Source of the DNA: an uncultured Gammaproteobacteria bacterium
GTDB taxonomy: Bacteria; Patescibacteriota; Microgenomatia; UBA12405
Assembly (NCBI GenBank): GCA_964463925.1
Contig: CAYXDV010000002.1
Span: 86,729 to 150,728, forward strand
DNA length: 64,000 nucleotides
Reading direction: 5' to 3'
In this document: piece after piece, positions 2,905 to 55,719 of the stretch
Layout of the letters: each line of letters opens with the position of its first letter
Numbering within the stretch: the stretch's first letter is position 1
Made by a program: the position numbers and the translations under genes
Notes under the pieces: model-generated
Databases searched by the model: none
What the model was told of the DNA's origin: nothing
The model's input: the letters and a program-made list of their open reading frames with translations, nothing else

Positions 2905-3149
2905 CAATCCAGTAAGTTTGCCAAGCTTTTTCCACACTTAATCCACCAGTATTTCTGCACACTTAATCCACCAAATATTACCCAAAGTCTAGCCATCACT
3001 ATAAGCTATTTTCGGTCTTTTTATCAATATTTATAGTCAAATAACACTTATCCAGTTTACTTTTTTTGATCTTTCAATCTAATAATGCTTATTCCACACC
3101 AGAGCCATCTCCCTAATACTAATTACTTTTAATTAAGATAAAATTAGAT
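2905..3149. other. candidate oriC: dnaA-dnaN spacer carrying DnaA-box-like motifs, a 16-bp direct repeat and an AT-rich unwinding stretch
   Basis: TTTTCCACA at 2928..2936. CACACTTAATCCACCA occurs twice as a direct repeat (2933..2948 and 2958..2973). TTATCCAGT is at 3048..3056 and TTATTCCACA at 3089..3098. AT-rich CTAATACTAATTACTTTTAATTAAGATAAAATTAGAT sits just 5' of the dnaN start. Confidence 0.6.
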
Positions 3150-4630: not shown

Positions 4631-5659
4631 TTACAAAATTAAACTAGTTCCCATCAACAACCTTAATACTGATTTTTTTTCCATGGTTTCTGCTTCAAAA
4701 AAAACATATGGCCATAGTTGTTTTTTTTCTGATATGTATAAATAACCCGGCTGATACATAGAAATTGTTGTATTTTCTGGTTTAAATTCAGCATCAGCAG
4801 CTATCAAACTATCGTTTGGTAATGCGTATAGCGGTTTTATACTCCTGTCATTTGTAAGCATTGCAGCATCTTTCGTTTTTAAATTTTCAGAAACTATCTG
4901 CTGATTAGTCGGAAAATATTCCACTACAAGCTCTTTTAGTTTTCCTAAACTATCATAAGTTATTCTAATTGGATATCCGTAGTTTTGTCCATATATAGGC
5001 CAATTATCAAAACTATAATTATAGTTAAAAACGATTCCGTCTGCATTTTCTCTAGTAGTAAAACCTGCACCTTCTAATTCATTTTTGAAAAATGATTTAG
5101 AACCAAGGATTGTTTTCCATGGGTCTTCAAGTCCCAATTTTGATAGCAAGATTTGATTATTTTTTTCTAAATTTTCTATAAGTTCAGTAGACATCGGAAC
5201 AAAATTATCTGCCACTTCTTTGTCTTTTATATCTATTTTTTGATCCCACCAAATACCAAGAACCGGGGTCTGATTTTGATTAATTATTAGTCTATCAATT
5301 GCTTTATTTCCAACTTGATTATCAAATATATAAACACCATTTGCAGACACCTGATTATCCATATGTTCAAATCCAAATATTTTCGCCATTTCTGTTACTT
5401 GATTATTAGTTAGTCGTTTATAATCCATTGTGTAAATTGCTGCTTGTTTTGGCAACTGATCTATTTTTGTTTGCCACTTAAAATTGCTTGCCATTGGTAT
5501 TTCTGTCTTTACTACTGGCAGAGGTAATTCTTTTGCATCCCGATCTTTTACAGTTTCCACGGTGGCACCTTTCTCAGGTCCCCTGCTTATCCACAAAAGA
5601 AACAAATAAATCAAAAACAAAACAATCCCCACAATTATCGCCAGTTGTAATCTACGCAT
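4631..5659 (-). CDS. membrane-anchored protein, last gene of the T4SS-like operon (possible VirB8/PrgL-like)
   Basis: 342 aa with a single N-terminal TM (LAIIVGIVLFLIYLFLLWI) followed by a soluble extracytoplasmic domain. The position after the hydrolase mirrors prgL/virB8 in Gram-positive T4SS loci. The assignment is by context only. Confidence 0.5.
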   Translation of the reverse strand: MRRLQLAIIVGIVLFLIYLFLLWISRGPEKGATVETVKDRDAKELPLPVVKTEIPMASNFKWQTKIDQLPKQAAIYTMDYKRLTNNQVTEMAKIFGFEHMDNQVSANGVYIFDNQVGNKAIDRLIINQNQTPVLGIWWDQKIDIKDKEVADNFVPMSTELIENLEKNNQILLSKLGLEDPWKTILGSKSFFKNELEGAGFTTRENADGIVFNYNYSFDNWPIYGQNYGYPIRITYDSLGKLKELVVEYFPTNQQIVSENLKTKDAAMLTNDRSIKPLYALPNDSLIAADAEFKPENTTISMYQPGYLYISEKKQLWPYVFFEAETMEKKSVLRLLMGTSLIL

Positions 5660-8343: not shown

Positions 8344-8351
8344 TGCCTAAA

Positions 8352-10736
8352 TTATACCGTGCTTCCAAACAAATCCTCATAGCTTAATTTTGGCTTTTCT
8401 TCCGGTTTCTTTGCTTCTTCTTTTTTTACAACTATTGTTTCATTTTTAATCGGTGCTTTAGGTAGTGGTGGTAATGGCGGCAGGGGAGGTAGTGGTGGTA
8501 ACTTTTTTGGTGTTGCTAAGCTTGGTTTTGCTTTAAACAAATCTTGGTATTTTGGCAAGCTGCCAAGCATTCTTTTCCTTTCCTCCTCTTCTTTCAATCT
8601 TTCTTTTTCCTTTTCCTCTTCTTCCTCTTTTTGTTTTTGATTATGAATTTCTATCTCAGCACTTGCCTTTTGTTCTAAATTTGCAATTTTATCCGCCAAA
8701 TCCTGATGAACAGTCGGTTTTTTAGTTTCTTCTACCTCTACTTTTTCTAGCACTCTAGCAGTTTCAGGCTCCTTTTTTAATGCAACTGTCGCTATTTCAA
8801 CCGCTGGTGCCACTATTTCTTTTATCATCGGCAGTTCAACCTTCTTGGTTTCTTCATTTCCAGCTTCATTTGTTTTTTGTTCCAAAACTTCATTCATCAA
8901 TTTCAAATTGGCCTTTTGCATTGCAATTTTTTGCTTCATTTTTAGCACTTCTTCTGGATTAGAAGTTATCAAAGCATGTTCTTCTGGACTGGCAATTACC
9001 CGTAAAGCCACATGATTTGAACCAGCAAAAAATATTCCTTGTCCTTTGTCAGCCGACAAAAGTAATTGTTTTTCTCCCTCAGATAAATAGAATGTTTCGC
9101 CAACTTGGTCAATCGCAGCACTATGTTGTTTTAACAATATTTGAATAGAACTATTTGTCACAATATCTCTACCATAAGGGGCATTCAAAAAATCCCCCAC
9201 ATCTTGAGTGATTGTTGTTACAGCCAAATAATATTTTCGACCCCGTTTTACCACACCTCTTAAAAAGGCCGCAGAATCTGGATATTGCATCATATACCAA
9301 GCCTCATCCACCACCAAAATTCGTTTCTTCAAAGTCTTTTTAACTGTCGTCCATATATAGTCCAAAATAATATGCATGGCCACTGGCCTAAGGCTCTCTT
9401 CTAAGTTTCGAATCCCAAAAACAACAAAATTACTCTTAAGGTTTACTGTTGTTTTTTGGTTAAAAATTCCAGCAAAAGATCCTTTTATATATTTCTCAAA
9501 TCTGGCAGTCAAAATCTTTGCCTTTTCATCTTCCATCCCAAGTAATGATTTGTATAAATCTTCGATCAAAGGAGCCTCTCGTTTTTGAGTTTCCGGATCA
9601 GGAGTTATACCTTTCATTTTATAAGCATCAACAATTGCTCTGTCTAAAATTGATTCTTCTAATGGATCCAAATCACCAATCATTACCTTAAACAACTTAT
9701 GCAAACCTAAAATTTTATCGTTTAGGGCGTTTTCTCCCTCATCTTGAACCAATGACAAATCAAATGGGTTTATTTTACTTTCTTCACCATAACCAAAAGC
9801 CACATATTGACCCCCCACAGACTCACACATCTCCCGATATTCATTTTCAGGATCAATTACTATTACATCAGTGTCAAACATTAAGCTTCGCATAGCCTCA
9901 AGTTTAACCAAATATGATTTTCCAGAACCAGCTGATGCAAAGACCACTGAATTGTAATTTGGCATTGAAAATCGATCAAAAATTACCAAGCTCCCGTTAT
10001 GTTCATTAATCCCATACATAATTCCCTTATCGTCAGATAAATCTGAAGACACAAAAGGAAAAGTTGTTGCTAGACTAGTTGTATCCATATTTCGGGTAAT
10101 TCCGAGACTATCCTTACAAATTGGCAAGGTTGTTGTAAAGCCACCTTCCATTTCCAAAGTAGCTTTTTTTGTTGTGATCATCAAAGCTCCTAATCCGCTC
10201 TCAAGATTTTTTGTTATTTTGTTAAGTTCATCCCTATCTTTGGCCGAAATTGTTATATACAGTCCAAATTGAAAAAATCTTTCTTCACCTTTGACCAAAT
10301 CAGTTTGCAAAGTTAGTGCATCTTCCAATTTTGCTTGAGTTGCCGGGTTTACTATTTTCCCTCTCTGAATATCAGTTGTCAGTTCAGCCTCCATTTCAGC
10401 AATCTTTCGCCTCAAGTCATCTAATATTTCTTTGCCATCTGTGGGATAAATATACATAGAAATTGATAAGCTGGCGTCAAAATTGATCAAACCAGACAAC
10501 CAATTCATTCCTACGAATCTAGGATAACCAGAGACAAAAAGGGTTCGATAATAACGACCATCAATTCGGATAAAATCCCAATCAACTTCAATAGCCCCCG
10601 GAGCAATCACATCTTTAATCGACACCAATCCCTCTACAAAAGGTTTGGCCCCATTCGCCACCGTTTCTGCTTTTGCAGATTCAACTTCAGTAGTTTTCTG
10701 CTTATCTTTCTTAAGTAGGGCAAGTATACTTTTCAT
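8352..10736 (-). CDS. VirB4/TrbE/PrgJ-family type IV secretion ATPase with a C-terminal acidic coiled-coil and proline-repeat extension
   Basis: 794 aa. VirB4 N-domain (YYRTLFVSGYPRFVGMNWLSGLI), Walker A (VVFASAGSGKSY) and Walker B (ILVVDEAWYMM). The C-terminal ~190 aa are atypical: EEEEEKEKERLKEEEERK followed by LPPLPPLPPLPPLPK. Confidence 0.8.
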   Translation of the reverse strand: MKSILALLKKDKQKTTEVESAKAETVANGAKPFVEGLVSIKDVIAPGAIEVDWDFIRIDGRYYRTLFVSGYPRFVGMNWLSGLINFDASLSISMYIYPTDGKEILDDLRRKIAEMEAELTTDIQRGKIVNPATQAKLEDALTLQTDLVKGEERFFQFGLYITISAKDRDELNKITKNLESGLGALMITTKKATLEMEGGFTTTLPICKDSLGITRNMDTTSLATTFPFVSSDLSDDKGIMYGINEHNGSLVIFDRFSMPNYNSVVFASAGSGKSYLVKLEAMRSLMFDTDVIVIDPENEYREMCESVGGQYVAFGYGEESKINPFDLSLVQDEGENALNDKILGLHKLFKVMIGDLDPLEESILDRAIVDAYKMKGITPDPETQKREAPLIEDLYKSLLGMEDEKAKILTARFEKYIKGSFAGIFNQKTTVNLKSNFVVFGIRNLEESLRPVAMHIILDYIWTTVKKTLKKRILVVDEAWYMMQYPDSAAFLRGVVKRGRKYYLAVTTITQDVGDFLNAPYGRDIVTNSSIQILLKQHSAAIDQVGETFYLSEGEKQLLLSADKGQGIFFAGSNHVALRVIASPEEHALITSNPEEVLKMKQKIAMQKANLKLMNEVLEQKTNEAGNEETKKVELPMIKEIVAPAVEIATVALKKEPETARVLEKVEVEETKKPTVHQDLADKIANLEQKASAEIEIHNQKQKEEEEEKEKERLKEEEERKRMLGSLPKYQDLFKAKPSLATPKKLPPLPPLPPLPPLPKAPIKNETIVVKKEEAKKPEEKPKLSYEDLFGSTV
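8461..8502 (-). repeat. imperfect 9-bp tandem repeat (~4.5 units) encoding the (PPL)n tract of the VirB4-like protein
   Basis: ggtagtggt ggtaatggc ggcagggga ggtagtggt ggtaac on the top strand. It is in-frame within the CDS. Confidence 0.7.
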
Positions 10737-10737
10737 A

Positions 10738-11421
10738 TTATTTTAAATTCGATTGAACAAGGGGAGAGGTAAAATCGCCTGCTAACTTCTGGGTGGTAAA
10801 ACTATCCTCATTATAAATCTTAAACAACAAAGCAACCAGCTCTCTTGTGCTCAGTGGTCGGACTTCTAACCCTAACCTAGAAAACAATCGCACTATTTGA
10901 TCTTTTTTGGGCTCTAGCGATAGCTTCGCTTTTTCCAATATATATTCTTTGCTATATGGCAGAGAAGTTTTTTTACCCGTTATCCCACTGCTTCCACCTT
11001 TAATCCCCAGCTCAAAAGCTGAAAAGGGGACGATTACATAAAAAGATTTTGACAACACATCATTTTTTCTAACCAAATCTTCCACAAACATTCGATATGA
11101 TTTGATTCTTTCTCTCAATAGCGAGTTTAGTTGTTTTTCCTCTGCTGTTTTTAGATTTGTCACATAATTTGTAATATCTTTAGTGCTAGTATGTATAACT
11201 ATTTGAACCGGAAAATTAAATGAATTTAAAATTCCACCATAAGCAAATACCAAAGATTGCTGTTCTCTTTCAGACAATAAATCAAAATTTACAGATGACA
11301 ATTGTAAAACCATGGCACAGGATCCATCTTTTAGTAAAACAATATTATTTACTACGTCTTCAACAGGCAAATGTTCCTGAGTAGTTCCTTTTATGGCAAT
11401 TTTGTGTGGGTCTAAGGGCAT
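10738..11421 (-). CDS. hypothetical protein in the T4SS-like operon
   Basis: 227-aa ORF with no obvious TM. It is tightly packed, 2 nt from the VirB4-like gene. I recognise no motif. Confidence 0.55.
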   Translation of the reverse strand: MPLDPHKIAIKGTTQEHLPVEDVVNNIVLLKDGSCAMVLQLSSVNFDLLSEREQQSLVFAYGGILNSFNFPVQIVIHTSTKDITNYVTNLKTAEEKQLNSLLRERIKSYRMFVEDLVRKNDVLSKSFYVIVPFSAFELGIKGGSSGITGKKTSLPYSKEYILEKAKLSLEPKKDQIVRLFSRLGLEVRPLSTRELVALLFKIYNEDSFTTQKLAGDFTSPLVQSNLK

Positions 11422-11446
11422 TAGTTAATCTTATCTCCTTCTTACT

Positions 11447-12385
11447 TTATTTTAAAGCTTGTATTCTAATTGGTTCCAATATAGCTCCAGTCATATTAAC
11501 TGCAACCGTATCAAATTTCATTCCGTCCTTTTCAGTAATTATCATATGTCGCCCGTTTGCCAGTGGGGTTGTTGTTTTAAACTGACCAAGTGAATTTGTT
11601 TGCAAAACTCTTTCCGATCCTCCCAAATCATTCTGAATCTCAACTATGGCTTCTGATATTATCTTGCCCCCTATGTCGATCACCATCCCAACCAATATAT
11701 TTGGTTCGGTTGGTTTACTTGGCATTGGAATGTCTCCGAAATTTGCCAACCCAGTCGCTTGTATTTTGCTGGTTTTCAAATTCAAATCCGTACTATTTTT
11801 CTCAACCTGCTTCAATTCTTCAACTACAACAATAGCTTCTGGTTGCGGCTTTTTTTCTTCAACTATATTGATGCTTTCAGCTACCGTAGGTTTGGGTGCT
11901 TCAGTTTTTGTAGAAGCAGTAATTTCTTCAGTATCATCATCGTCAAAATAAATCTTTCCAGCCTTACTGCTGGGGATCGATTTAATAAACTCGTCTACTT
12001 TGGATATCTCCTTTTTTGGTCTAGATTCCTCTTCTTCAGCCTCAAGATTTAATTTCTTGCTAAAGTCTACCTCTAACCAGTTGGGGTCAACTTTTTTCTT
12101 CCATGTAAATATTGTCGGGGCGTACAAACTACGCACAAAGGCAATGACCCATTTTTCTAAAGGTCGATCTTGAAAAGGAATAAATGCGGTCGCAAGGCCC
12201 CCTAAAGCCAGTATTGCCATTAGTGGCCATTTTATAAAGAAAACCAGGGGAGTTGCGTTTACCATGACCGCCAAAATGATTCCTCCGGCTGCTTTTCCAA
12301 ACTGCTTAATTGTCATGTCTCCCACCAGCTTAAATTCGTAGCTAGTTATTTGTTGTGGTATGGGATGTTGTTCGACTCCGGGCAT
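11447..12385 (-). CDS. membrane protein with a VirB3/PrgI-like N-terminus and a C-terminal beta-rich extension
   Basis: 312 aa. The N-terminus (YEFKLVGDMTIKQFGKAAGGIILAVMVNATPLVFFIKWPLMAILALGGLATAFIPF) is a two-TM hairpin typical of VirB3-like proteins. It is the first gene of the minus-strand operon. Confidence 0.5.
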   Translation of the reverse strand: MPGVEQHPIPQQITSYEFKLVGDMTIKQFGKAAGGIILAVMVNATPLVFFIKWPLMAILALGGLATAFIPFQDRPLEKWVIAFVRSLYAPTIFTWKKKVDPNWLEVDFSKKLNLEAEEEESRPKKEISKVDEFIKSIPSSKAGKIYFDDDDTEEITASTKTEAPKPTVAESINIVEEKKPQPEAIVVVEELKQVEKNSTDLNLKTSKIQATGLANFGDIPMPSKPTEPNILVGMVIDIGGKIISEAIVEIQNDLGGSERVLQTNSLGQFKTTTPLANGRHMIITEKDGMKFDTVAVNMTGAILEPIRIQALK

Positions 12386-29672: not shown

Positions 29673-29755
29673 AGGAAGGGTCGGATAGTGGTTTATTCCA
29701 CACGCTTGGAAAGCGTGCACCGCAAGGTATCGTGGGTTCGAATCCCACCCCTTCC
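29673..29755 (+). tRNA. tRNA-Ser (anticodon GGA), class II with a long variable arm
   Basis: Acceptor GGAAGGG/CCCTTCC, anticodon stem CACGC/GCGTG with loop TTGGAAA, long variable arm, T-arm GTGGG-TTCGAAT-CCCAC, discriminator G. No CCA. Confidence 0.85.
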
Positions 29756-29796
29756 GCACTTCGTGTAATGTTCGAGTAATTTGGTAGAATTGATTT

Positions 29797-30834
29797 ATGA
29801 ATTTTGTGAAATTACCTAAACTCAAAAGAGGTAATAAAGTTGCTATTTTATCTCCATCTTTTGCGGCTCCAGGTAAATGGCCTTTGGTTTATGAATTGGG
29901 ATGTCAAAGATTGAGAGATATTTTTGGGTTGGAACCGATTGAATTTTCAACTACCAAAAAAATTGGAGCTAGCGGTGAAGAAAGGAGTAGGGATTTGATT
30001 GATGCTTTTGAAAATAAAGAAATTAAAGCTGTAATTGCTTCACTTGGTGGAGATGATCAAATAACTTATATTAAAAACCTTCCTCAAAGACCTTTTGTCG
30101 AAAATCCAAAACCATTTTTTGGTTATAGTGATAACACTCATTTTATTAACCATCTTTGGTTGTGTGGTATCCCTTCCTTTTATGGTGGACATTTATTTAC
30201 TGAATTTGCCATGCAAAAAGAAATGGATGAATTTACTATCAAATATTTAAAACACGCTTTATTTGATAACGGCAGTTTTGAGTTAGAGTCAAGTCCTATT
30301 TTTAACGATATTGGTTTGAATTGGAATGATGAATCAACTCTAAATCAAAAACGAAGATATCAATCAAATGACGGTTGGCATTGGGATGGATTAAAAAATA
30401 CCCAAGGCATTACTTGGGGTGGTTGTCTTGAATCAGTCGATGAATTACTTAGACACGGAATTACAATTCCAACTCTTGATGAGTTTAAAAATATTATTTT
30501 ATTTTTAGAAACTTCAGAAGAAATTCCCAGCCATGATTATTTTCGTCGAGTTTTGAGAGCTTTGGGCGAAAAGGGAATCTTAAGAAACATCAAAGGACTT
30601 TTGGTTGGTCGACCGAAAGCTTGGGAGTTTAATAAACAAAATTCTGACGAAGAAAAAGAAATTTACAAAAAAGGGCAAAGAGAAATGGTATTAGAAATTG
30701 TCAGAAAATATAATCAAGAAATCCCAATCATTCAAAATTTGGATTTCGGTCATACTGCACCACAAATTTGTTTACCGACTGGTAAAAAAGTAGTTATTGA
30801 CTCTAATAGCAAATTAGTAGAAGCAGAATTCTAG
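29797..30834 (+). CDS. LD-carboxypeptidase (peptidase S66 family)
   Basis: Ser nucleophile motif FFGYSDNTHF, and KVAILSPS at the N-terminus. Confidence 0.8.
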   Translation: MNFVKLPKLKRGNKVAILSPSFAAPGKWPLVYELGCQRLRDIFGLEPIEFSTTKKIGASGEERSRDLIDAFENKEIKAVIASLGGDDQITYIKNLPQRPFVENPKPFFGYSDNTHFINHLWLCGIPSFYGGHLFTEFAMQKEMDEFTIKYLKHALFDNGSFELESSPIFNDIGLNWNDESTLNQKRRYQSNDGWHWDGLKNTQGITWGGCLESVDELLRHGITIPTLDEFKNIILFLETSEEIPSHDYFRRVLRALGEKGILRNIKGLLVGRPKAWEFNKQNSDEEKEIYKKGQREMVLEIVRKYNQEIPIIQNLDFGHTAPQICLPTGKKVVIDSNSKLVEAEF

Positions 30835-30840
30835 TTATAA

Positions 30841-30880
30841 GGATAGAAAGGTTCCAAACTCATATGCTCCGCCAATGTCG
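30841..30880. repeat. degenerate copy of the 37-bp intergenic repeat
   Basis: AGAAAGGTTCCAAACTCATATGCTCCGCCAATG compared with AAAATAGGTTCTAACAGCGTCAATGATTCGCCGCCAA. They share AGGTTCyAA...TCCGCCAA. Confidence 0.5.
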
Positions 30881-30897
30881 TGACAATTAAATATTGT

Positions 30898-31279
30898 CTA
30901 TTGTTTCAGCCGTTTTCCTGACCATAGGTGAAAGTGAATTTGACCAATTTTTTGACGTTCACCACCATTCACTAGAATGGTGTAACCGCTGTTGTTCCAC
31001 CCTAATTCTTTAACAATTTCTTTGGCTACTAGATAAACTTCGCTGATAAAGACACTGTCTTCTTGCGATAAAGTGGTTATAGATTTAATAGCTTTTTTAG
31101 GAACTAAGACAATATGCTTTTCCCAAAAAAGGTTTGGGGTGCCAAAAAGCGATAATTTTGTCGGTTTCTTTAATTCTGGTGACAGGCAATAATTGACTAA
31201 ATTTTCCAAAAGCTAAACCGACAATTAAATCTCCAAGCGGTGATTTAGCTAATTCAAAAACTTTTTTCGAAATGCTCAT
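30898..31279 (-). pseudogene. HIT-family hydrolase disrupted by a 1-nt frameshift in a T6/A6 homopolymer
   Basis: The N-terminal frame (31279..31097) reads ...TDKIIAFWHPKPF. The C-terminal frame (31209..30898) reads ...LFWEKHIVLVPKK...GYTILVNGGERQKIGQIHFHLWSGKRL, a HIT triad region. Removing one base from the A6 run at 31125..31130 yields the continuous ...IIAFWHPKPFWEKHIVLVPKK..., matching AF.DI.P.AP.HILViPK. Confidence 0.7.
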
Positions 31280-31304
31280 TAAGTAAATTATAGTTCATAG
31301 CTAT

Positions 31305-31341
31305 AAAATAGGTTCTAACAGCGTCAATGATTCGCCGCCAA
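31305..31341. repeat. 37-bp intergenic direct repeat, copy 1 (AAAATAGGTTCTAACAGCGTCAATGATTCGCCGCCAA)
   Basis: Identical 37-mer to 32106..32142. It lies 43 nt upstream of the epimerase start. Confidence 0.85.
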
Positions 31342-31383
31342 GATATGATTACCCTATTCTACTGATGTTTTTTGTTGTTATAA

Positions 31384-32091
31384 TTGATTATGAAGATGTT
31401 TGTAACTGGTTCGAGTGGATTTATTGGATCTGAATTAATTAAAAAAATATTACATGAAAATGAAATTGTGACTTTTGATTTGAAAAATAGTCAAAATATT
31501 CTTGATTTTGAAAGGTTAAAAGAATCTATGAAAGGTTGTAAAGTAGTAATTCATTTAGCGGCTTTAAGAAAACCTTATGAAGATAAAACTTTTGAAGATT
31601 ACTTCAGAACTAATGTGGAGGGAACTTTTAATGTAGCTCAAGCTTGTCTAGAAAATGGAGTCAAAAAGATGATTTATTCTAGTTCAACATCGTATTATGG
31701 AGTAGAAGAAGGTATCCCTTTTCAAAAACCAATTAAAGAAAATAATTTGACCGTGGCTCAAAATGTTAAAGAAAATGAATTAAAATGTAGAGATTGTGAC
31801 ATGGCTTATTCGACGAGTAAAGTCATAGCTGAACAGGTCTTAGCGAATTATGGCTTAAGGAAAAAGTTTCAAGTGATTATTTTAAGATTGGGACCAACAA
31901 GGGAAACAGGAGAATATCGTCCTTTTGGCGAATTAAAACTTCATTTGAAGATAGAAAATGCAATTCAGTCAATCGAAAAATCAATAAATAATAAAAGGGA
32001 GATATGGTATGAGGCTTTTACTATTACTGATAAAGTTGATGAAGTTGATATTTCAAAAGCCGAAAGATTACTAGGTTACAAACCAGAGTAG
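31384..32091 (+). CDS. NAD-dependent epimerase/dehydratase family protein (short SDR)
   Basis: Rossmann motif VTGSSGFIGSEL and catalytic YSTSK. Confidence 0.75.
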   Translation: MIMKMFVTGSSGFIGSELIKKILHENEIVTFDLKNSQNILDFERLKESMKGCKVVIHLAALRKPYEDKTFEDYFRTNVEGTFNVAQACLENGVKKMIYSSSTSYYGVEEGIPFQKPIKENNLTVAQNVKENELKCRDCDMAYSTSKVIAEQVLANYGLRKKFQVIILRLGPTRETGEYRPFGELKLHLKIENAIQSIEKSINNKREIWYEAFTITDKVDEVDISKAERLLGYKPE

Positions 32092-32105
32092 GTATTTGTT
32101 TTCAC

Positions 32106-32142
32106 AAAATAGGTTCTAACAGCGTCAATGATTCGCCGCCAA
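32106..32142. repeat. 37-bp intergenic direct repeat, copy 2
   Basis: Identical to copy 1. It lies 28 nt upstream of the DMT transporter start. Confidence 0.85.
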
Positions 32143-32169
32143 TTTTAAAAAATAAGATATACTCTGCTC

Positions 32170-33017
32170 ATGACTTGGTATACATACGCGTTGATTCCGA
32201 TGGTTTTGTATACCGTGTTTAATATCCTCACAAGAGTGGTTTTAAAAGATACAGAAGACACCAAATCATTCGCAGTTTTATTCTATGGCTTGACAGCCAT
32301 ATTTAACTTATGTATCGGATTCTTTGAATCAATCAAAATTGGAAACATCACCCCGCTTATTGCCATTTTGACTGCAATAGTATTCGTGAATTGGGGCGTG
32401 TTTGGTTTTTTGGAAACAAATGCAAAAAAACATACTGAAATTTCGACTTTTATGGTCTTGGTAAAAACTGGAACCGTGTTGTCGTTTATTCTTTCAGTGA
32501 TTTTCCTAAAAGAGTTAGTTACGGTTCGAAAGATTATAGCTTTAGTATTGATGGTGGGGACAATGGTGGTACTTATATTTAGAATTTATGGAATAAAATT
32601 AAAAGTGGACAAAGGCTTTGTCTATTCGGCGCTATTGGGAATAATTTTGGGAATAGGTTGGACAATTGATAAGATTGTGGCGGTGGCTTGGGGAGCAGTA
32701 TTGTACTCCGCGATCTCAAGCTTTAGCTCTTGTGCTTTTGCCATAGCAGTACCTCCAGTAAAAGTTGGTGCCTTAAAAAACAGTTTAAACTAATAACTTC
32801 GACGTTTATATTTCTGGTGCTAATCAATGCCGTGGCATATTATTTTTTTATGAAAGCCATGACAATAGGGGAAGTTTCGAGAGTAGTCTTGGTGGTGACT
32901 TTGAATGAGATATTAACGATAATTGCGGGAATATTTTTTCTTGGAGAAAAATCGCATTGGGTAGAAAAAATTGTCGCAGGGGTAGTAATAGTATCGGCTT
33001 CGTTTTTATTGTTATAA
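32170..33017 (+). pseudogene. DMT/EamA-family transporter split by a 1-nt frameshift in an A6 homopolymer
   Basis: Two overlapping ORFs (32170..32793 and 32730..33017). The second carries the EamA C-terminal helices (VAYYFFMKAMTIGEVSRVVLVVTLNEILTIIAGIFFLGEK). Adding one A to the run at 32775..32780 fuses them as ...VGALKKQFKLITSTFIFLVLINAVAYY.... Confidence 0.6.
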
Positions 33018-33072
33018 CGACAGAAAGGTTCTAATCCCTTATCCTTAAGGGGATGCGAATATATAATTTGTT

Positions 33073-33459
33073 ATGAAAACAATTCTCGTTGATGCAGCTG
33101 GAACTTTTGTAATTGAGGGTGAAGGGATTTATCAACCACTATATGAATTGCTGAAAAGATATCCGAATAAGAAGATTATCCTGACGAATGCCAGTGATGA
33201 CCAAATAATTGAATTTGGTTTAACAAATCTACCTTATCCACTTTTTACTCTTAAACACAATCCTGACAAGACTGACCCCAAGTATTTCAAGAAAATGTTG
33301 ATCAAATTTAATCTAAAATCTAAAGACGTAATATATTTCGAGCACAATTTGGATGCAGTAAAAAGTGCTGAATCGGTTGGAATTAAATCATTCTTCTACG
33401 ATGCTGAGAAAAAGGATCAGATGGCTTTAAAAGAATTTCTAGATACAAACCTAAATTAA
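33073..33459 (+). CDS. HAD-like hydrolase (degenerate motif I)
   Basis: 128 aa with ILVDAAGT at the N-terminus and a HAD motif III-like YFEHNLDAVKSAESVGI. The second Asp of DxD is replaced. Confidence 0.5.
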   Translation: MKTILVDAAGTFVIEGEGIYQPLYELLKRYPNKKIILTNASDDQIIEFGLTNLPYPLFTLKHNPDKTDPKYFKKMLIKFNLKSKDVIYFEHNLDAVKSAESVGIKSFFYDAEKKDQMALKEFLDTNLN

Positions 33460-33669
33460 GTTGAGACTTTTTCAATTTGTTTATCATTTAGAATGAATCT
33501 GATCTCGAGTAATGCCAATATTTCTTACTTTTCTTCTATCGAGTTTTCTCTGATAAATGGACAGTCAACAACCTCCATTAAATATTCAAATCAAATAGAC
33601 AGGAAAGACGTGGCACATTCTACTAGTTTCTAATCCTGAATGTTAATATATGGTACACAAATTATATAT

Positions 33670-34362
33670 ATGAAAATCAAAATCTTATCTTGGAATATCT
33701 GGATAGATGGCTTTCTAGAAAAATGGGAAACATATCTACGATCTGCTGACGCAGATGTTATTGGTTTGCAAGAAGTCAAAAACAGTGACCCAAATCGAGA
33801 CATTATCGGAATGCTAACAAAACTTGGATATAACTACACATTTGCAGAAACCGAGCAAGTCTGGAATGGAAAAACATATCGGCATGGGCCAGCAATCTTC
33901 ACTAAGTTTCCTATTATAAAATCCGAGAAAATTCAACTCGAAATTGGAGAAGGAGAACGGGCAGCTGCCTATGCAAAATTAGATATTGGGGGAACTCCAC
34001 TCCATGTTTATAATACTCACTTGATTCATACGCACCAACAAGAATCCACCCAGCAAGAACAGCAAACCAATAATTTAATAGCCAAATTGCCAGATAATCA
34101 TGTGGTCGTGATGGGGGATTTCAACGCCACATCCAAAAGTAAATCCATCCAAGCAATGAATAAAATACTTGTAGATACAGACCCTTCAGCCCTTCCTACA
34201 TGGAGTGTGTATCCAGAAGGATGTATCAAATGTAATCCACAAAGAGTCGACACAAAACTAGACTATATTTTCATAAGCAAGGACTTAAAGAAACATTCCT
34301 TTGAAGTTGGGAAATCTGATGGCTCTGACCATCTACCCATTTTGGCCGTTATAGAAACGTAG
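33670..34362 (+). CDS. endonuclease/exonuclease/phosphatase (EEP) family protein
   Basis: Start MKIKILSWNIW. Motifs GLQEV, GDFNA and a C-terminal SDHLPILAVIE. Confidence 0.8.
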   Translation: MKIKILSWNIWIDGFLEKWETYLRSADADVIGLQEVKNSDPNRDIIGMLTKLGYNYTFAETEQVWNGKTYRHGPAIFTKFPIIKSEKIQLEIGEGERAAAYAKLDIGGTPLHVYNTHLIHTHQQESTQQEQQTNNLIAKLPDNHVVVMGDFNATSKSKSIQAMNKILVDTDPSALPTWSVYPEGCIKCNPQRVDTKLDYIFISKDLKKHSFEVGKSDGSDHLPILAVIET

Positions 34363-34416
34363 ACTCTAGATATCTTCAGATCATTTCACCTTATTCGAAT
34401 CCCATTATAATCAATT

Positions 34417-35124
34417 ATGTCCTTCAATTCGGTCACTAGCCTAAAGGCTGACCCTTACTTTCTAAAAGATGATTTCCAATCAAAGCCTAGTACCAAGATT
34501 TGGGGACTAAAACGTCAACCACTAATGATCAATAGTCACTCGTTGTCACAAGGTAAAAATATTGGCAGCCAGGAACCTAGAAATTGTCTGAAAGTAACTT
34601 GTTGTCCTGGAGATATTACCATAGTAGGGCAGAGTGGACGTATTACTGAACGAGCAGAACTGGTGGAAAACAAGGAATTGTGGTTACTACACGGAGTTAA
34701 TATTTGGTACACTTTTTCTTTATTGATACCCAAAGATTATCAACAGAATTCAAATCGTTTAGTTTTTGCCCAATGGAAACAATTTGGCAATACCCATTCC
34801 CCATTTTTATCTCTCCGTTACATAAGTAGAAGTTTTGAATCAAAATTGAGCAACTCAAATGAACAGATAAAAACCAATTTTGGCCAATTAGCAACAGACA
34901 TTTGGCACACTTTTCTAATTAATTACCAATTGAACAATAACGAAACAGGACAGTTTTCTATTTGGTTAGACAAAAGGCTAGTTCAAACCTACACAGGTCG
35001 CTTAGGTTTCAAACCAAATGGTGATTTTATCCATTTTCATTTAGGCATATATCGGGACCATCTTCCTTTTGCACAGACTCTTTATTTCTCCAACTTCCTT
35101 CGCTCTTCCTATGATTTACAATAA
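34417..35124 (+). CDS. hypothetical protein, possibly a PL7-like (alginate-lyase fold) jelly-roll protein
   Basis: Weak resemblance to PL7 motifs (RITERAELVE, AQWKQ, IHFHLGIYRDH). Low confidence. Confidence 0.45.
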   Translation: MSFNSVTSLKADPYFLKDDFQSKPSTKIWGLKRQPLMINSHSLSQGKNIGSQEPRNCLKVTCCPGDITIVGQSGRITERAELVENKELWLLHGVNIWYTFSLLIPKDYQQNSNRLVFAQWKQFGNTHSPFLSLRYISRSFESKLSNSNEQIKTNFGQLATDIWHTFLINYQLNNNETGQFSIWLDKRLVQTYTGRLGFKPNGDFIHFHLGIYRDHLPFAQTLYFSNFLRSSYDLQ

Positions 35125-52757: not shown

Positions 52758-54134
52758 ATGTCAAAAATAAGATTGATAATTGCGGCCTGCTTAGTTTTAT
52801 TGTTTGTTCAACTCACCAAGGTTGTCCTTGCCGGCAGCGGTGGTCCAGACCATGCTCGTTTTTTCTTTCTAGATCCCCAGAACTATGCTGCTGGCGGGTC
52901 AGTCATAATCCTAAAAAAGGATAGTCAGACGGGAATTATTAGCGATGTTACTACCGATCAAACCTTAGTAACCTTAAAAACCGGAAACTATTATTTTGGC
53001 AAATTAGCCCCAGATTGCTCAGGTGTATTGGAGTTCGATTATCCTCCAGCTAATAGTTATTATTCTTACGACTTGCGTTGGGTCAAAGAAAACAATCTAT
53101 ATCAAAATAATGTTCAGATTTTAGATACTAACTTTTTTAAATTTGGAGAAAATTTTTTGACTGATCATAATCCCGCTTCTGTTCATTATGTCTCTCTGCA
53201 AGTAAACGGCTTTGACTTTAATGGAGATGGTATAGTTACCCCAGAAGAGCTAAGTCAGACACGATTACTGCAAAATCAAAATTGTGGTTCTGGATCGGTT
53301 TATTACTATGGTAACGGCGGTTCTCCCACCCCTACCCTTTGGCCTACCACTACCCCGACCGCAACTCCCACCACTTCTCCTACAGTTACTCCAATTCCAA
53401 CTCTAGTTCCCACATCCACGCCTACTCCTACGCCAACACCAATTAGTATGAATAGCCTTGGTTTTCAAGATCCTGGGGCAATTACAGTCACTGTTTCTCC
53501 TGGCAATATTCAATTTGCCTTTAATCTAACTTCTATTTCTGCAACCCAATTTAGCTTCTATAGTTATCCTACCTCTTATGGTCCTGGCATCAACACCAAT
53601 CCATCTAGCGGGGGAATAACGCCTGGTCAAACTATATCTATTTCAATCTCAATCAACTCTAATGTTCCACTCGGTGTCTATACTGGTTATCAAAAAGTAG
53701 TTTCCTCACAGGGTCCAAATATTTACGCCCAGATACCTTTTACTGTCAATGTTGTGCAGGCAGTTCCCACATCTACCCCCAACCCTCTCCCAACCTTCAC
53801 TCCCACCCCTACGCTCATGCCAACTTTGATACCTACCCCGACCGCTATGCCCGCTCTTTCTTTTACCAATGTCTATGTTTCTTCTCTAACTAAAACTTCG
53901 GCTAACATCAACTGGACCACAAATTTGGCTTCTACTTCTCTAGTAAAATACGGCCCATCTGCAACCAGATTAGACCAATCAACCGCTGAACTTCTGTCCA
54001 ACCAGCAGAATCATTTAATTTCCCTCTCTGGATTGACCAAACAAAAAACTTATTACTACCAAATATATAGTCGGGATTATACAGGGCTGCTCAAAACAGA
54101 CGGTAAAACCTATTCCTTTACTACTACAAAATAA
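52758..54134 (+). CDS. secreted Pro/Thr-rich surface protein with a C-terminal fibronectin-III-like domain
   Basis: Signal peptide, PT-linkers (TPTATPTTSPTVTPIPTLVPTSTPTPTPTP), and a C-terminal Fn3-like region (VSSLTKTSANINWTT...VKYGPS). Confidence 0.55.
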   Translation: MSKIRLIIAACLVLLFVQLTKVVLAGSGGPDHARFFFLDPQNYAAGGSVIILKKDSQTGIISDVTTDQTLVTLKTGNYYFGKLAPDCSGVLEFDYPPANSYYSYDLRWVKENNLYQNNVQILDTNFFKFGENFLTDHNPASVHYVSLQVNGFDFNGDGIVTPEELSQTRLLQNQNCGSGSVYYYGNGGSPTPTLWPTTTPTATPTTSPTVTPIPTLVPTSTPTPTPTPISMNSLGFQDPGAITVTVSPGNIQFAFNLTSISATQFSFYSYPTSYGPGINTNPSSGGITPGQTISISISINSNVPLGVYTGYQKVVSSQGPNIYAQIPFTVNVVQAVPTSTPNPLPTFTPTPTLMPTLIPTPTAMPALSFTNVYVSSLTKTSANINWTTNLASTSLVKYGPSATRLDQSTAELLSNQQNHLISLSGLTKQKTYYYQIYSRDYTGLLKTDGKTYSFTTTK

Positions 54135-54229
54135 CAACTATCTAAAGACAAATGCGAGTTTTCTGAAAGTTTTCTGAAAGTGAATACAGATTCTAGTTCT
54201 TGATCGAGTCACATAGAACTTTGACCCTT

Positions 54230-54320
54230 TGGCGGTAGGAGAGGGAGTCGAACCCTCATGCCGCTTTTTACACGACGCAGGTTTAGCAAACCTGTGGCTT
54301 ACCATTCGCCGCATCCTACC
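54230..54320 (-). tRNA. tRNA-Ser (anticodon GCU), class II, CCA encoded
   Basis: Acceptor GGTAGGA/TCCTACC, anticodon stem CAGGT/ACCTG with loop TTGCTAA, long variable arm, T-arm GAGGG-TTCGACT-CCCTC, discriminator G, and 3' CCA. Confidence 0.85.
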
Positions 54321-55075: not shown

Positions 55076-55163
55076 GGAGGGTTGGCCCAGTGGTTTAAGG
55101 CACTGGTTTCGAAAACCAGCGGGAGCAATTCCATCGCAGGTTCGAATCCTGCACCCTCCGCCA
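55076..55163 (+). tRNA. tRNA-Ser (anticodon CGA), class II, CCA encoded
   Basis: Acceptor GGAGGGT/ACCCTCC, anticodon stem CTGGT/ACCAG with loop TTCGAAA, long variable arm, T-arm GCAGG-TTCGAAT-CCTGC, discriminator G, and CCA. Confidence 0.85.
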
Positions 55164-55170
55164 TGAAAAT

Positions 55171-55626
55171 ATGACAGAGATTGTTCAACTCGAAAGATCA
55201 CAAAAACTAAGCGAAGACCTCATTAACTATGTAGAAGCAAAATGGCCAGAGGTTGTGAACGTGGTCGTGCCAGTTATCAAAGAGAGCCAAAGAGTTACTT
55301 CTGGACTACCATTTGTTTTTGTATTATTAAAAAATAAAAAAATTATTGGCTTTTACCAGATAATTAAACAAGAAATAGTTCTCAGAAAAGATATTTCGCC
55401 TTGGATATCACCAATATTTGTTGATGAACAAGAAAGAGGAAATTCTTATGGTAAATTAATGCTTAACCATGCCAGGAAGGTAATTGGAGATCTTGGATAT
55501 CAAACAGTTTATCTAGCTACTGATCATATTGGGTATTATGAAAAATACGGATTTCGAGAAATTGGACTAAGCAACTTTGAATGGGGAAGACCAACTAAAA
55601 TTTATAAGGCTGATGCGATTAAATAA
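55171..55626 (+). CDS. GNAT-family N-acetyltransferase
   Basis: 151 aa with the acetyl-CoA motif region (VDEQERGNSYGKLMLNHARKV) and YLATDHIGYYEKYGF. Confidence 0.65.
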   Translation: MTEIVQLERSQKLSEDLINYVEAKWPEVVNVVVPVIKESQRVTSGLPFVFVLLKNKKIIGFYQIIKQEIVLRKDISPWISPIFVDEQERGNSYGKLMLNHARKVIGDLGYQTVYLATDHIGYYEKYGFREIGLSNFEWGRPTKIYKADAIK

Positions 55627-55632
55627 TTATTG

Positions 55633-55665
55633 GGACAGAAAGGTTTCAGACCCATCCGCTCTGCC
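55633..55665. repeat. short relative of the AGAAAGGTTC intergenic motif
   Basis: GACAGAAAGGTTTCAGACCC...GCCAAAC. It shares GACAGAAAGGTT with 33011..33025 and AGGTTC...GCCAA with the 37-bp repeats. It sits ~55 nt upstream of the 55720 gene. Confidence 0.35.
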
Positions 55666-55719
55666 AAACTTCTCATATTTGCCTTTTTACACTTCGTCTG
55701 TAAAACTAGCAAATAGTTT

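What the first reader, a model, noticed from the sequence alone, without database searches (positions are those of the whole stretch)
30841..33060. 37-bp perfect direct repeat flanking the epimerase gene, with degenerate relatives at other gene 5' ends
AAAATAGGTTCTAACAGCGTCAATGATTCGCCGCCAA occurs identically at 31305..31341 and 32106..32142. That is about 40 nt and 30 nt upstream of the epimerase and DMT transporter starts respectively, so the pair brackets the epimerase gene.

Three degenerate relatives also sit in 5' regions of genes:
- 30841..30880: AGAAAGGTTCCAAAC...TCCGCCAA.
- 33011..33060: GACAGAAAGGTTCTAATCCCTTATCCTTAAGGGGATGCGAATATATAAT, which contains the perfect palindrome CCTTAAGG.
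- 55633..55665: GACAGAAAGGTTTCAGACCC.

Possible explanations include a shared promoter/operator for a regulon, a cassette recombination site, or a miniature mobile repeat. It is not CRISPR.
Basis: seen in the sequence. Interest (0 to 1): 0.55.

Follow-up and report, generated by a model that had tools for sequence, protein, structure and literature searches.

The report
tRNA-Ser-anchored gene cassette boundary repeats
The repeat is a roughly 41-nt site that imitates the end of a serine-tRNA gene and marks the far edge of small gene insertions stacked behind serine-tRNA genes in tiny-genome (CPR) bacteria, which looks like an integron-like gene-capture arrangement that the literature searched does not describe.

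Summary
The 37-mer occurs exactly twice (31305-31341, 32106-32142), and three degenerate relatives lie at about 30834, 33011 and 55627.

It is not a promoter or operator. These copies belong to a conserved site I call R, of about 41 nt, with consensus GTTATAAGGAYAGAAAGGTTCCAGACCCnnATGCTCCGCCA. I found R in about 45 low-GC, CPR-like metagenome contigs and one related genome assembly.

R copies the last 28 nt of a tRNA-Ser gene in exact register: the T-loop GGTTC.A..C and the acceptor end TCCGCCA.

- All 74 copies are intergenic.
- Within a locus they share the orientation of a tRNA-Ser gene lying upstream.
- Neighbouring genes face either way.
- Copies are spaced about 0.9 kb apart.

Near-identical contigs differ by insertions that begin right after the tRNA's TCCGC and end with R's own TCCGC. 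The same cassette (99.8-100% identical) follows the tRNA in one genome and an R in another.

So R is most likely the cassette-borne half of an att site. In the window, tRNA-Ser(gga) anchors four or more cassettes: LD-carboxypeptidase, a HIT pseudogene, the epimerase and an EamA pseudogene. tRNA-Ser(cga) anchors one, a GNAT gene.

I found no recombinase, so the enzyme and its activity are inferred. The 37-mer pair is a divergent R subtype, and its membership is less certain.

The parts
29674..29757 (+). tRNA-Ser(gga). It anchors the main array, acting as the attB-like site. The variable DNA begins right after ...CCTTCCGC.
   Evidence: ARAGORN and Rfam. The identical tRNA is present in relative L024, with divergence starting at its 3' end. 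The NUDIX-tRNA-Ser(gga) context is conserved in L046 and L049, which carry other cassettes.
29797..30834 (+). Cassette 1 cargo: an LD-carboxypeptidase (Peptidase_S66).
   Evidence: Pfam. GC is 0.33, against 0.40-0.41 for the flanking core genes.
30834..30875 (+). R1, the best-preserved R copy: GTTATAAGGATAGAAAGGTTCCAAACTCATATGCTCCGCCAA. Its first base is the last base of the LD-carboxypeptidase stop codon.
   Evidence: Scores 50 bits (E=1e-14), and E=4e-14 with the metagenome-only profile.
30898..31279 (-). Cassette 2 cargo: a HIT-family gene split by a frameshift into two ORFs (30898-31209 and 31097-31279). It is in reverse orientation.
   Evidence: ORF list; Pfam.
31297..31341 (+). R2, a divergent R subtype. 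The first copy of the exact 37-mer spans 31305-31341.
   Evidence: 12.6 bits. Not detected by the independent profile.
31396..32091 (+). Cassette 3 cargo: a 231-aa NAD-dependent epimerase/oxidoreductase. The unit from R2 to R3 is 801 bp.
   Evidence: Pfam. P0121 matches at 100% identity over 231 aa. The family is shared by CPR bacteria and DPANN archaea at 60-72% identity.
32098..32142 (+). R3. The second copy of the exact 37-mer spans 32106-32142.
   Evidence: 8.9 bits.
32170..33017 (+). Cassette 4 cargo: an EamA/DMT transporter split by a frameshift into 32170-32793 and 32730-33017.
   Evidence: The Logan contig shows the same 207-aa ORF.
33011..33059 (+). R4, an R copy whose 3' half is disrupted by a palindromic insertion (TCCCTTATCCTTAAGGGGA). 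The EamA stop codon lies inside its GTTATAA.
   Evidence: Scores 28 bits (E=8e-8) and E=7e-4. Fold shown.
33073..35124 (+). Rest of the variable region: a 128-aa ORF, an EEP-family nuclease/phosphatase (33640-34362) and a polysaccharide lyase (34417-35124). The lyase is truncated in relative L024, which marks the right border of the hotspot.
   Evidence: Pfam; synteny.
34394..34404 (+). TTCGAATCCCA, an exact 11-mer of the tRNA-Ser(gga) T-arm. It may be a genuine tRNA 3' fragment left by an older event.
   Evidence: Seen in the sequence. The chance expectation in 64 kb is about 0.03 by my own arithmetic. Not tested further.
55076..55163 (+). tRNA-Ser(cga), the anchor of the second, one-cassette array.
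55171..55626 (+). Cassette cargo: a GNAT acetyltransferase.
   Evidence: Pfam. GC is 0.33.
55627..55666 (+). R5: TTATTGGGACAGAAAGGTTTCAGACCCATCCGCTCTGCCA.
   Evidence: Scores 37 bits (E=1e-10) and E=3e-8. L061 has the analogous layout, tRNA-Ser(cga), one gene, then R, while L029 has the same site empty.
54206..54320 (-). tRNA-Ser(gct) with an unoccupied site. The tRNA is followed directly by its native flank, CCGCCA|AAGGGTCAAAGTTCTATGTGAC.
   Evidence: In L026 a DUF8168 gene and an R copy sit between the tRNA and this flank.

Best explanation
**What R is.** The five copies are instances of R, a site of about 41 nt carried by small gene cassettes that accumulate behind tRNA-Ser genes in Microgenomates-type CPR bacteria. 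R imitates the last 28 nt of a tRNA-Ser gene with no gaps. It has G53 T54 T55 C56 . A58 . . C61, then T70 C71 C72 G73 C74 C75 A76.

**How it works (proposed).**
1. A cassette consists of a promoter-bearing left end, one or a few genes in either orientation, and R.
2. The cassette recombines through the short shared core TCCGC(CA) with the 3' end of a tRNA-Ser gene, or with an R already in place.
3. The tRNA stays intact.
4. The cassette lands right behind the tRNA and pushes older cassettes outward.
5. Repeated events build arrays in which each cassette ends in a co-oriented R.

**In this window.** tRNA-Ser(gga) carries an old, partly decayed array: LD-carboxypeptidase|R1, HIT pseudogene|R2, epimerase|R3, EamA pseudogene|R4, and more beyond. 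tRNA-Ser(cga) carries one cassette, GNAT|R5. The perfect 37-mer pair is simply two neighbouring cassettes that end in the same R subtype.

**Shown:**
- the R family and its resemblance to the tRNA 3' end;
- its position and orientation rules;
- exact filled versus empty junctions;
- the same cassette at different array positions.

**Inferred:**
- that a site-specific recombinase acting in trans does the job;
- that circular cassette intermediates exist;
- that the window's array is now largely inactive.
For: **1. The family is real and widespread.** A pattern scan of metagenome contigs returned 56 loci. About 45 of them are low-GC, CPR-like contigs that share the conserved site, including a 5' part that was not in the search pattern.

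**2. R is tied to tRNA-Ser.** In 16 or more loci a tRNA-Ser (gct, cga, gga or tga) lies 0.25-10 kb upstream on the same strand. 30 of the 74 copies have such a tRNA within the DNA held. The window follows the same rule.

**3. Arrays recur.** L044 holds four co-oriented R copies; L064, L066 and L073 hold three each; several other loci hold two. One or a few ORFs lie between copies, and the median spacing is 913 bp. None of the 74 copies lies inside an ORF of 100 aa or more.

**4. Junctions are exact.**
- L053 and L075 are 99.94% identical for 1625 bp, up to ...CCTTCCGC of tRNA-Ser(gct). L075 then carries 5.4 kb ending in R ...ATGCTCCGC|CAAAGGGTC, which is the flank that follows the tRNA directly in L053.
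- L029 and L061 show the same relationship at tRNA-Ser(cga), with a one-gene cassette.
- The window and L026 show it at tRNA-Ser(gct).

**5. Cassettes move between positions.** One cassette, 99.8-100% identical, follows the tRNA in L055 but follows an R in L056 and L045. The tRNA regions of those contigs are only 86% identical. The identity starts 4-6 nt before the junction.

**6. The window's own hotspot is variable.** ClpB-NUDIX-tRNA-Ser(gga) and the far flank (Transgly_assoc, radical SAM) are syntenic in L024, which is 83% identical in ClpB. L024 holds different genes in between. L046 and L049 have yet other cassettes with R copies at the same tRNA.

**7. Composition.** The array has lower GC (0.34) than the flanking core genes (0.40-0.41).

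**8. Shared identity is too short for homologous recombination.** R and the tRNA share only 7-9 identical nt at the junction (my reading).
Against: **No recombinase found.** None turned up in the window ORFs I checked. None turned up among about 400 ORFs of the family loci, which I screened by a regex, by clustering, and by Pfam on the recurrent and tRNA-adjacent ORFs. That screen was not exhaustive.

**No direct evidence of excision or circular forms.**

**The window's copies are degenerate.**
- R4 is disrupted.
- R5 reads TCTGC where the core is TCCGC.
- The tRNA-Ser(gga) junction reads CCGCAC, with no CCA.
- Two cargo genes are frameshifted.

This array may therefore be a fossil.

**The 37-mer pair is weakly supported as a family member.** The profile built from metagenome copies alone does not recognise it.

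**Not every gene here behaves as a cassette.** LD-carboxypeptidase homologs in L054 and L063 follow an R plus flank but have no R after them.

**Sampling bias.** The metagenome family was retrieved with a pattern derived from R1, R5 and one L026 copy. Its core conservation is therefore partly imposed by the search.
Confidence: 0.6

Rival explanations
1. **Scars of ordinary integrase-bearing islands.** The R copies would be leftover attR scars of conventional tRNA-integrating islands or prophages, of the tycheposon type. The integrases and most of the content have since been deleted in these reduced genomes. On this view there is no dedicated cassette system.
For: - Stacking behind tRNA genes, with partial-tRNA repeats scattered through islands, is well documented for tycheposons (10.1101/2020.12.28.424599, read).
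- The window's array has pseudogenes and degenerate R copies.
- A genuine tRNA-Ser(gct) 3' fragment lies inside the L075 insert. An 11-nt fragment of the tRNA-Ser(gga) T-arm lies at 34394.
Against: - R is not a copy of the host tRNA's 3' end. It is about 61% identical to it.
- R is nearly the same behind four different tRNA-Ser isoacceptors and across contigs whose core DNA is only 74-88% identical.
- Spacing is single-gene, with a median of 913 bp.
- No integrase or integrase remnant was seen.
- Identical cassettes sit at different array positions.
Confidence: 0.17
2. **Passive homology for recombination.** R and the conserved flank that follows it would serve only as homology arms. Cassettes would be swapped between cells by DNA uptake and RecA-dependent recombination, with no site-specific enzyme.
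For: - Many cassettes are bracketed by R (about 41 nt) and a conserved flank module of about 105 nt.
- The perfect 37-bp identity of R2 and R3 is close to the minimum length for RecA-dependent recombination. This figure comes from my own knowledge, not from a tool result.
Against: - In three independent comparisons the breakpoint sits at the tRNA|cassette junction, where the tRNA and R share only 5-9 nt. That is too short for homologous recombination.
- The strong conservation of R's tRNA-like register suggests it is recognised by a protein.
Confidence: 0.1
3. **An RNA-level or expression signal.** R would act as a promoter or operator, a terminator, or a tRNA-like 3' minihelix processed by tRNA enzymes.
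For: - R mimics the T-loop, acceptor end and CCA, and sits right after stop codons in many cases.
- RNAalifold can draw a small helix, GGAYA paired with TG(C)TCC.
- The long form of R is preceded by a TATACT-like -10 box.
Against: - R's orientation is independent of the genes on either side, which are split roughly 50/50.
- Short R copies fold no better than shuffled sequence, with z from +1.3 to -1.3.
- There is no covariation: the observed score equals the shuffled score.
- R matches no Rfam family, not even tRNA at E<=10.
- Promoter-like hits are at background frequency.
Confidence: 0.08
4. **A local duplication or assembly artefact.** The 37-mer pair would have nothing to do with the other three copies.
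For: - The independent profile does not detect the pair.
- The Logan assembly breaks at both copies.
Against: - The pair aligns with R1, R4 and R5 at the AGGTTCYAA core, at CAATG and at the CGCCAA end.
- The pair lies in the array, in the same orientation and in intergenic gaps.
- Near-identical R subtypes within one array also occur in L064.
- Two assemblies agree on the flanking sequence.
Confidence: 0.05

Closest known systems
Tycheposons and other tRNA-targeting integrative elements of Prochlorococcus (Hackl et al., bioRxiv 10.1101/2020.12.28.424599)
   Same: - Insertion at the 3' end of specific tRNA genes, including a tRNA-Ser.
- The tRNA is kept intact.
- A partial-tRNA repeat sits at the far end of the insertion.
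- Successive insertions push older ones outward, building variable islands of niche and defence genes in streamlined genomes.
   Different: - Tycheposons carry their own tyrosine or large serine recombinase, and often replication genes. They measure several kb to more than 10 kb.
- Their flanking repeats are copies of the host tRNA's own 3' part.
- Here the units are mostly single genes of about 0.9 kb, and no recombinase was found.
- Here the repeat is a conserved tRNA mimic, about 61% identical to the tRNA, shared across four isoacceptors.
Chromosomal integrons, and attC clusters that lack an integrase (CALINs)
   Same: - Arrays of small, mostly single-gene cassettes, each ending in a recombination site.
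- Insertion at one primary site, so that new cassettes are proximal.
- Site subtypes can be homogeneous within an array: R2=R3 here and L064, comparable to the Vibrio VCRs.
- The ORF often runs into the site.
- Arrays without a nearby integrase are known.
   Different: - attC sites are 57-141-bp imperfect palindromes that recombine as folded single strands. R is about 41 nt, not palindromic, and not structured.
- The primary site here is the 3' end of a tRNA-Ser gene, not an attI next to intI.
- About 45% of cassette genes here are reversed.
- Many cassettes here bring their own promoter-like module.
Xer-dependent modules: pdif modules on Acinetobacter plasmids, and IMEX elements such as CTX phage (from my own knowledge)
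   Same: Small gene modules bounded by short recombination sites, which move without encoding a recombinase because they use a host enzyme.
   Different: - Those sites are 28-bp dif-like sequences with XerC and XerD arms, in alternating orientation for pdif modules.
- R is tRNA-like and always in direct orientation.
- No dif resemblance was seen by eye, but this was not formally tested.

Membership tests
Integron cassette array (attC sites) | The site is an imperfect inverted repeat (R''-L''...L'-R', RYYYAAC...GTTRRRY) of 57-141 bp that folds into a hairpin. | tested here: not met
   R is about 41 nt. Short copies fold no better than shuffles, with z from +1.3 to -1.3. There is no covariation. 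No GTTRRRY partner is visible in the sequence.
Integron cassette array (attC sites) | An intI tyrosine recombinase gene, with attI and the Pc promoter, lies next to the first cassette. | tested here: not met
   The array starts at tRNA-Ser(gga). The neighbouring genes are NUDIX and ClpB. No integrase was found in the related loci.
Integron cassette array (attC sites) | An array of small cassettes, each ending in a co-oriented site. | tested here: met
   The window holds R1-R4. L044, L064, L066 and L073 show the same layout, with a median spacing of 913 bp. Unlike in integrons, gene orientation is mixed.
tRNA-targeting integrative element or genomic island (tycheposon-like) | Insertion at the 3' end of a tRNA gene, shown by filled versus empty sites, with the tRNA restored. 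| tested here: met
   L053 versus L075, L029 versus L061, L055 versus L056, and the window versus L026.
tRNA-targeting integrative element or genomic island (tycheposon-like) | The direct repeat at the far end is a copy of the host tRNA's 3' part. | tested here: inconclusive
   R keeps the tRNA register and the TCCGCCA end. It is only about 61% identical to the tRNA and is the same behind different isoacceptors.
tRNA-targeting integrative element or genomic island (tycheposon-like) | The element encodes its own integrase. | tested here: not met
   None was found in the cassettes or inserts examined. The screen was not exhaustive.
tRNA gene or pseudogene | A cloverleaf recognised by tRNA models. 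| tested here: not met
   ARAGORN and Rfam find only the five true tRNAs. No tRNA match at R even at E<=10. The T-stem pairs are broken, as the sequence shows.
Sigma-70 promoter or operator of a regulon | Fixed orientation and distance relative to the regulated gene. | tested here: not met
   The downstream ORF is on the + strand in 28 cases and the - strand in 25. Distances vary. R1 faces a convergent gene. Promoter-like hits are at background frequency.
MITE or REP-type miniature repeat | Terminal inverted repeats or a palindrome, with dispersed copies. | tested here: not met
   R has no inverted repeat. The window holds five copies in two clusters, each behind a tRNA-Ser.
Xer/dif-type module | A 28-bp site with two 11-bp recombinase arms around a 6-bp spacer. 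| not tested
   Inspected by eye only. I had no dif model for this lineage.

The most novel reading that the evidence does not exclude
CPR bacteria of the Microgenomates type have a gene-capture system that works like an integron but is built from different parts.
- The 3' ends of tRNA-Ser genes serve as the primary insertion sites.
- A conserved tRNA-mimicking site of about 41 nt (R) closes each cassette. It sometimes carries an upstream module with three copies of the 9-mer GTCTCATTT.
- A dedicated recombinase, not yet identified and encoded elsewhere in the genome, moves the cassettes.

The cassettes carry metabolic, cell-envelope and anti-phage genes.
Probability: 0.4. Interest if true: 0.85.

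Novelty: new variant of a known kind. Interest (0 to 1): 0.7.

Why it matters
CPR bacteria have tiny genomes and few recognisable mobile elements. How they acquire and shuffle accessory genes is poorly understood.

A cassette system anchored at tRNA-Ser genes would explain hypervariable regions next to these tRNAs. The cargo seen here includes:
- TOTE and AbiV defence genes;
- RelA/SpoT-like genes;
- queuosine salvage genes;
- glycosyltransferases;
- small hydrolases.

The system would also provide a short sequence tag (R) with which to find such regions in metagenomes. It would pose a concrete biochemical question: which enzyme recognises a tRNA-Ser 3' end and its mimic?

There is a practical consequence too. 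Assemblies break at these sites, so cargo genes end up on contigs of about 0.9 kb and are lost from genome bins.

Tried and rejected
**Collection scans that found nothing useful**
- The genome-contig scan with AGAAAGGTTYYARNCNCNTN{4,16}YGCSAA returned 14 hits in unrelated phyla, at about the chance level. None was CPR. The source genome is evidently not in that collection.
- Viral-contig scans gave only chance hits in coding DNA for a loose pattern. They gave no hits for the R core or the 37-mer. R is therefore not a known phage attP in that collection.
- The plasmid collection gave no match.
- Rfam at relaxed thresholds gave nothing meaningful.

**Weak or uninformative leads**
- Short T-loop-like words such as TTCNAATCC are too common in this window to count as evidence on their own. 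I therefore did not count 33628 as an R copy, and I treat 34394 only as a lead.
- The nearest homologs of the epimerase sit in other lineages without R (L084-L087; one of these contexts carries MCM and PolB). They did not help with the 37-mer subtype.

**Ideas tested and dropped**
- The search for a recombinase by regex, clustering and Pfam was negative.
- I considered and rejected a small ORF reading through the long form of R, because the spacer length varies between copies (11, 12 or 14 nt).
- I considered that the hairpin TGTCTCATT/AATGAGACA in long-form R might be an RNA stem. About half of the copies carry an uncompensated C.A mismatch there, so repeated protein-binding sites seem more likely.
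Full report
**1. The observation**

The 37-mer AAAATAGGTTCTAACAGCGTCAATGATTCGCCGCCAA is present exactly twice, at 31305-31341 and 32106-32142 on the + strand. None of 100 shuffles gave a match. Identity ends sharply on both sides.

An independent short-read assembly of run SRR12404947 breaks its contigs inside both copies. A real repeat longer than the assembler's word would produce that.

The three degenerate relatives are real. Aligned together, the five copies share A.A.AAGGTTYYAR...C.T...YGCSAA. A sequence profile finds only these five in the 64-kb window, and the next-best hits score 7 bits or less.

One of those weak hits is the true 3' end of tRNA-Ser(cga). It aligns to the motif without gaps.

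**2.

R1 lies one gene downstream of tRNA-Ser(gga) (29674-29757). R5 lies one gene downstream of tRNA-Ser(cga) (55076-55163).

From GGTTC to CCA, R1 and R5 have exactly the spacing found in a tRNA. G53 to A76 is 24 nt, with T54, T55, A58, C61 and the ending TCC-G-CCA in place. That ending is the acceptor end common to tRNA-Ser genes.

The T-stem does not pair, however, and neither ARAGORN nor Rfam calls the motif a tRNA.

**3. The organism and the locus**

The ClpB-like protein next to the locus has its best named relatives in Shapirobacteria, Woesebacteria and the Microgenomates group.

In the closest relative available (L024, ClpB 83% identical) the flanks are syntenic. ClpB, NUDIX and an identical tRNA-Ser(gga) lie on one side. 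Transgly_assoc, radical SAM and an aminotransferase lie on the other.

The DNA in between is different. L024 holds a UDG gene and a truncated lyase, where the window holds seven genes. Divergence starts right at the end of the tRNA.

Two metagenome contigs, L046 and L049, have the same NUDIX-tRNA-Ser(gga) context followed by yet other genes.

The window's array has lower GC (0.34) than its flanking core genes (0.40-0.41). Two of its genes, HIT and EamA, are frameshifted.

**4. The family**

A first pattern scan of the species-representative genomes gave only chance hits.

In a related genome assembly (L026, GCA_964442385.1) the profile found two copies behind tRNA-Ser(gct). The first copy is followed by AAGGGTCAATGTTCTATGCGAC. 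In the window, that sequence directly follows tRNA-Ser(gct). This was the first filled-versus-empty pair.

A pattern covering R1, R5 and the L026 copy then retrieved 56 metagenome loci. About 45 are low-GC contigs with a tightly conserved site, GTTATAAGGAYAGAAAGGTTCCAGACCCnnATGCTCCGCCA. The 5' third of that consensus was not part of the pattern.

Some copies have a long form with an upstream module:
- a TATACT-like box;
- two or three direct copies of GTCTCATTT;
- one inverted copy of the same 9-mer.

None of the window's copies has this module.

Many copies are followed by a module of about 105 nt, AAGGGTCAAAGTTCTATGCGACCCCAGTG...CAACATTTTTC...AGCCTGTAAYA. This is the same module that follows genuine tRNA-Ser(gct) genes.

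**5. Rules of occurrence**

In 16 or more loci a tRNA-Ser (gct, cga, gga or tga) lies upstream on the same strand, 0.25-10 kb away.

Across 74 copies:
- None lies inside an ORF of 100 aa or more.
- All copies within a locus are co-oriented. The exception is L053, where two copies follow an oppositely oriented tRNA-Ser(cga) on that tRNA's strand.
- The gene before R is on the + strand in 35 cases and the - strand in 27.
- The gene after R is on the + strand in 28 cases and the - strand in 25.
- R-to-R spacing has a median of 913 bp.

Arrays like the window's recur:
- L044 has four copies.
- L064 has three copies of one near-identical subtype, which parallels R2=R3.
- L066 and L073 have three each.

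Cargo is miscellaneous. It includes:
- aldo-keto reductase and peptidase S51;
- class I LysRS;
- NUDIX and histidine phosphatase;
- QueC, QueF-like and YhhQ-like proteins;
- glycosyltransferases;
- an ABC exporter;
- a TOTE primase-helicase and an AbiV HEPN protein;
- a RelA/SpoT-like protein;
- RHH and HTH_17 proteins;
- a GIY-YIG nuclease.

**6. Junctions**

L053 and L075 are 99.94% identical over 1625 bp, up to ...CCTTCCGC of tRNA-Ser(gct).
- L053 continues CAAAGGGTC...
- L075 continues with 5.4 kb of other DNA that ends in R ...ATGCTCCGC, and then CAAAGGGTC....

L029 and L061 show the same relationship at tRNA-Ser(cga).
- Empty site: ...CCCTCCGC|AATAATTTAG.
- Filled site...CCCTCCGC|TAAAATG...gene...R...CTACTCCGC|AATAATTTAT.

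This is the counterpart of the window's tRNA-Ser(cga), GNAT, R5 arrangement.

One cassette, 99.8-100% identical, follows the tRNA in L055 but follows an R in L056 and L045. The tRNA regions of those contigs are only 86% identical. The identity starts 4-6 nt before the junction.

Insertions therefore occupy the position after T70-C74 of the tRNA gene. The 5-nt TCCGC is present at both ends. The tRNA and R share only 7-9 nt at that point. That points to site-specific rather than homologous recombination. This last step is my inference.

**7. What R is not**

- *Not a structured RNA.* Short copies fold no better than shuffles. The small helix proposed by RNAalifold has no covariation, and observed values equal shuffled values. 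No Rfam family matches.
- *Not an attC-like hairpin.*
- *Not a promoter or terminator.* Its orientation ignores the genes, and promoter-like and terminator-like hits are at background frequency.
- *Not found in viral contigs or plasmids*.

**8. What is missing**

I found no recombinase in the window ORFs I checked. The window begins at dnaA and dnaN and carries type IV secretion-like genes.

I also found none among about 400 ORFs of the family loci. That screen was not exhaustive.

The three 9-mer repeats of the long form look like binding sites for a protein, but this is inference.

The literature library returned nothing describing such arrays in CPR bacteria. The closest documented system is the tycheposon family.

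**9. The 37-mer pair itself**

The pair brackets an 801-bp unit (31339-32139 if cut after GCCGC) that holds the 231-aa epimerase.

By hand alignment it matches the R consensus at AGGTTC.A, CAATG and C.CCGCCAA, with insertions of 2 and 3 nt. A profile built from metagenome copies alone does not detect it.

I read it as a divergent R subtype shared by two neighbouring cassettes, as in L064. I give this part lower confidence than the rest.

The epimerase belongs to a family of about 232 aa shared by CPR bacteria and DPANN archaea at 60-72% identity. Many homologs sit on contigs of about 0.9 kb, which is the size expected if repeats flank them. The nearest homolog loci I could read carry no R.

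**10. Verdict**

The finding is real. It is one decayed example of a recurrent arrangement, which the literature searched does not describe: arrays of small cassettes behind tRNA-Ser genes, each closed by a tRNA-mimicking site.

The arrangement works like tRNA-targeting islands in where it inserts, and like integron arrays in how it is organised. It fails the defining tests for membership of either family.

Noticed in passing
window 30898-31279 (-) and 32170-33017 (+): Two cargo genes of the array are split by frameshifts: the HIT-family gene and the EamA transporter. The EamA frameshift is also present in the independent Logan contig, so it is not an error of a single assembly.
   Followed up: partly
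window 33034-33054; L035 (oriented as in my analysis) about 7680-7700: R4 carries a palindromic insertion, TCCCTTATCCTTAAGGGGA. In L035 the flank after R carries an unrelated GC-rich palindrome, CCTGCCTGCCGGCAGGCAGG. Small hairpin-forming insertions seem to target these sites.
   Followed up: no
window 34394-34404 and 33623-33636: TTCGAATCCCA is an exact 11-mer of the tRNA-Ser(gga) T-arm and lies just upstream of the polysaccharide lyase start. GTTTCTAATCCTG resembles R4 and lies just upstream of the EEP gene. Both may be older, eroded boundaries.
   Followed up: partly
Metagenome loci, e.g. L054 (oriented) 5005-5122, L071 1270-1385, L069 125-236: A long form of R has a TATACT-like box, two or three direct copies of GTCTCATTT and one inverted copy, about 58 nt upstream of the core. 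It is present at roughly 30 of the 74 copies and at none of the copies in the window.
   Followed up: partly
window 54206-54229 (-); L042, L053, L055, L056 directly after tRNA-Ser(gct): A flank of about 105 nt after tRNA-Ser(gct) is conserved between genomes whose proteins are only about 60% identical. It reads AAGGGTCAAAGTTCTATGCGACC, with the inverted repeat GGGTC...GACCC, and ends in a promoter-like CAACATTTTTC...AGCCTGTAAYA. It is repeated after many R copies.
   Followed up: partly
L058 (oriented) 3495-3567: ARAGORN reports an odd tRNA-like gene of undetermined type, with a two-base anticodon (ct), about 135 bp upstream of a long-form R.
   Followed up: no
window 31396-32091; proteins P0122-P0240: The small epimerase/oxidoreductase family (about 232 aa) is shared at 60-72% identity by CPR bacteria and DPANN archaea (records named Nanoarchaeales, Pacearchaeota and Diapherotrites). 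In L086 and L087 it sits right after a tRNA-Thr in a contig that carries MCM and PolB. Many homologs are on contigs of about 0.9 kb.
   Followed up: partly
window 1561-4268 and 5671-12385: The window starts at dnaA and dnaN, so it probably lies near the replication origin. These are followed by large minus-strand ORFs and a PrgI-family protein, which suggests a type IV secretion-like cluster.
   Followed up: no
window 53326-53866, inside ORF 52758-54134: A repetitive C- and A-rich coding stretch (CTACCCC..., probably Pro/Thr-rich) lies in a protein that ends in a purple-acid-phosphatase N-terminal-type domain.
   Followed up: no
L057 (oriented) 1445-1909: A small GIY-YIG nuclease gene lies immediately after tRNA-Ser(gct), as the first gene of a 5-kb insert that ends in an R copy.
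   Followed up: no
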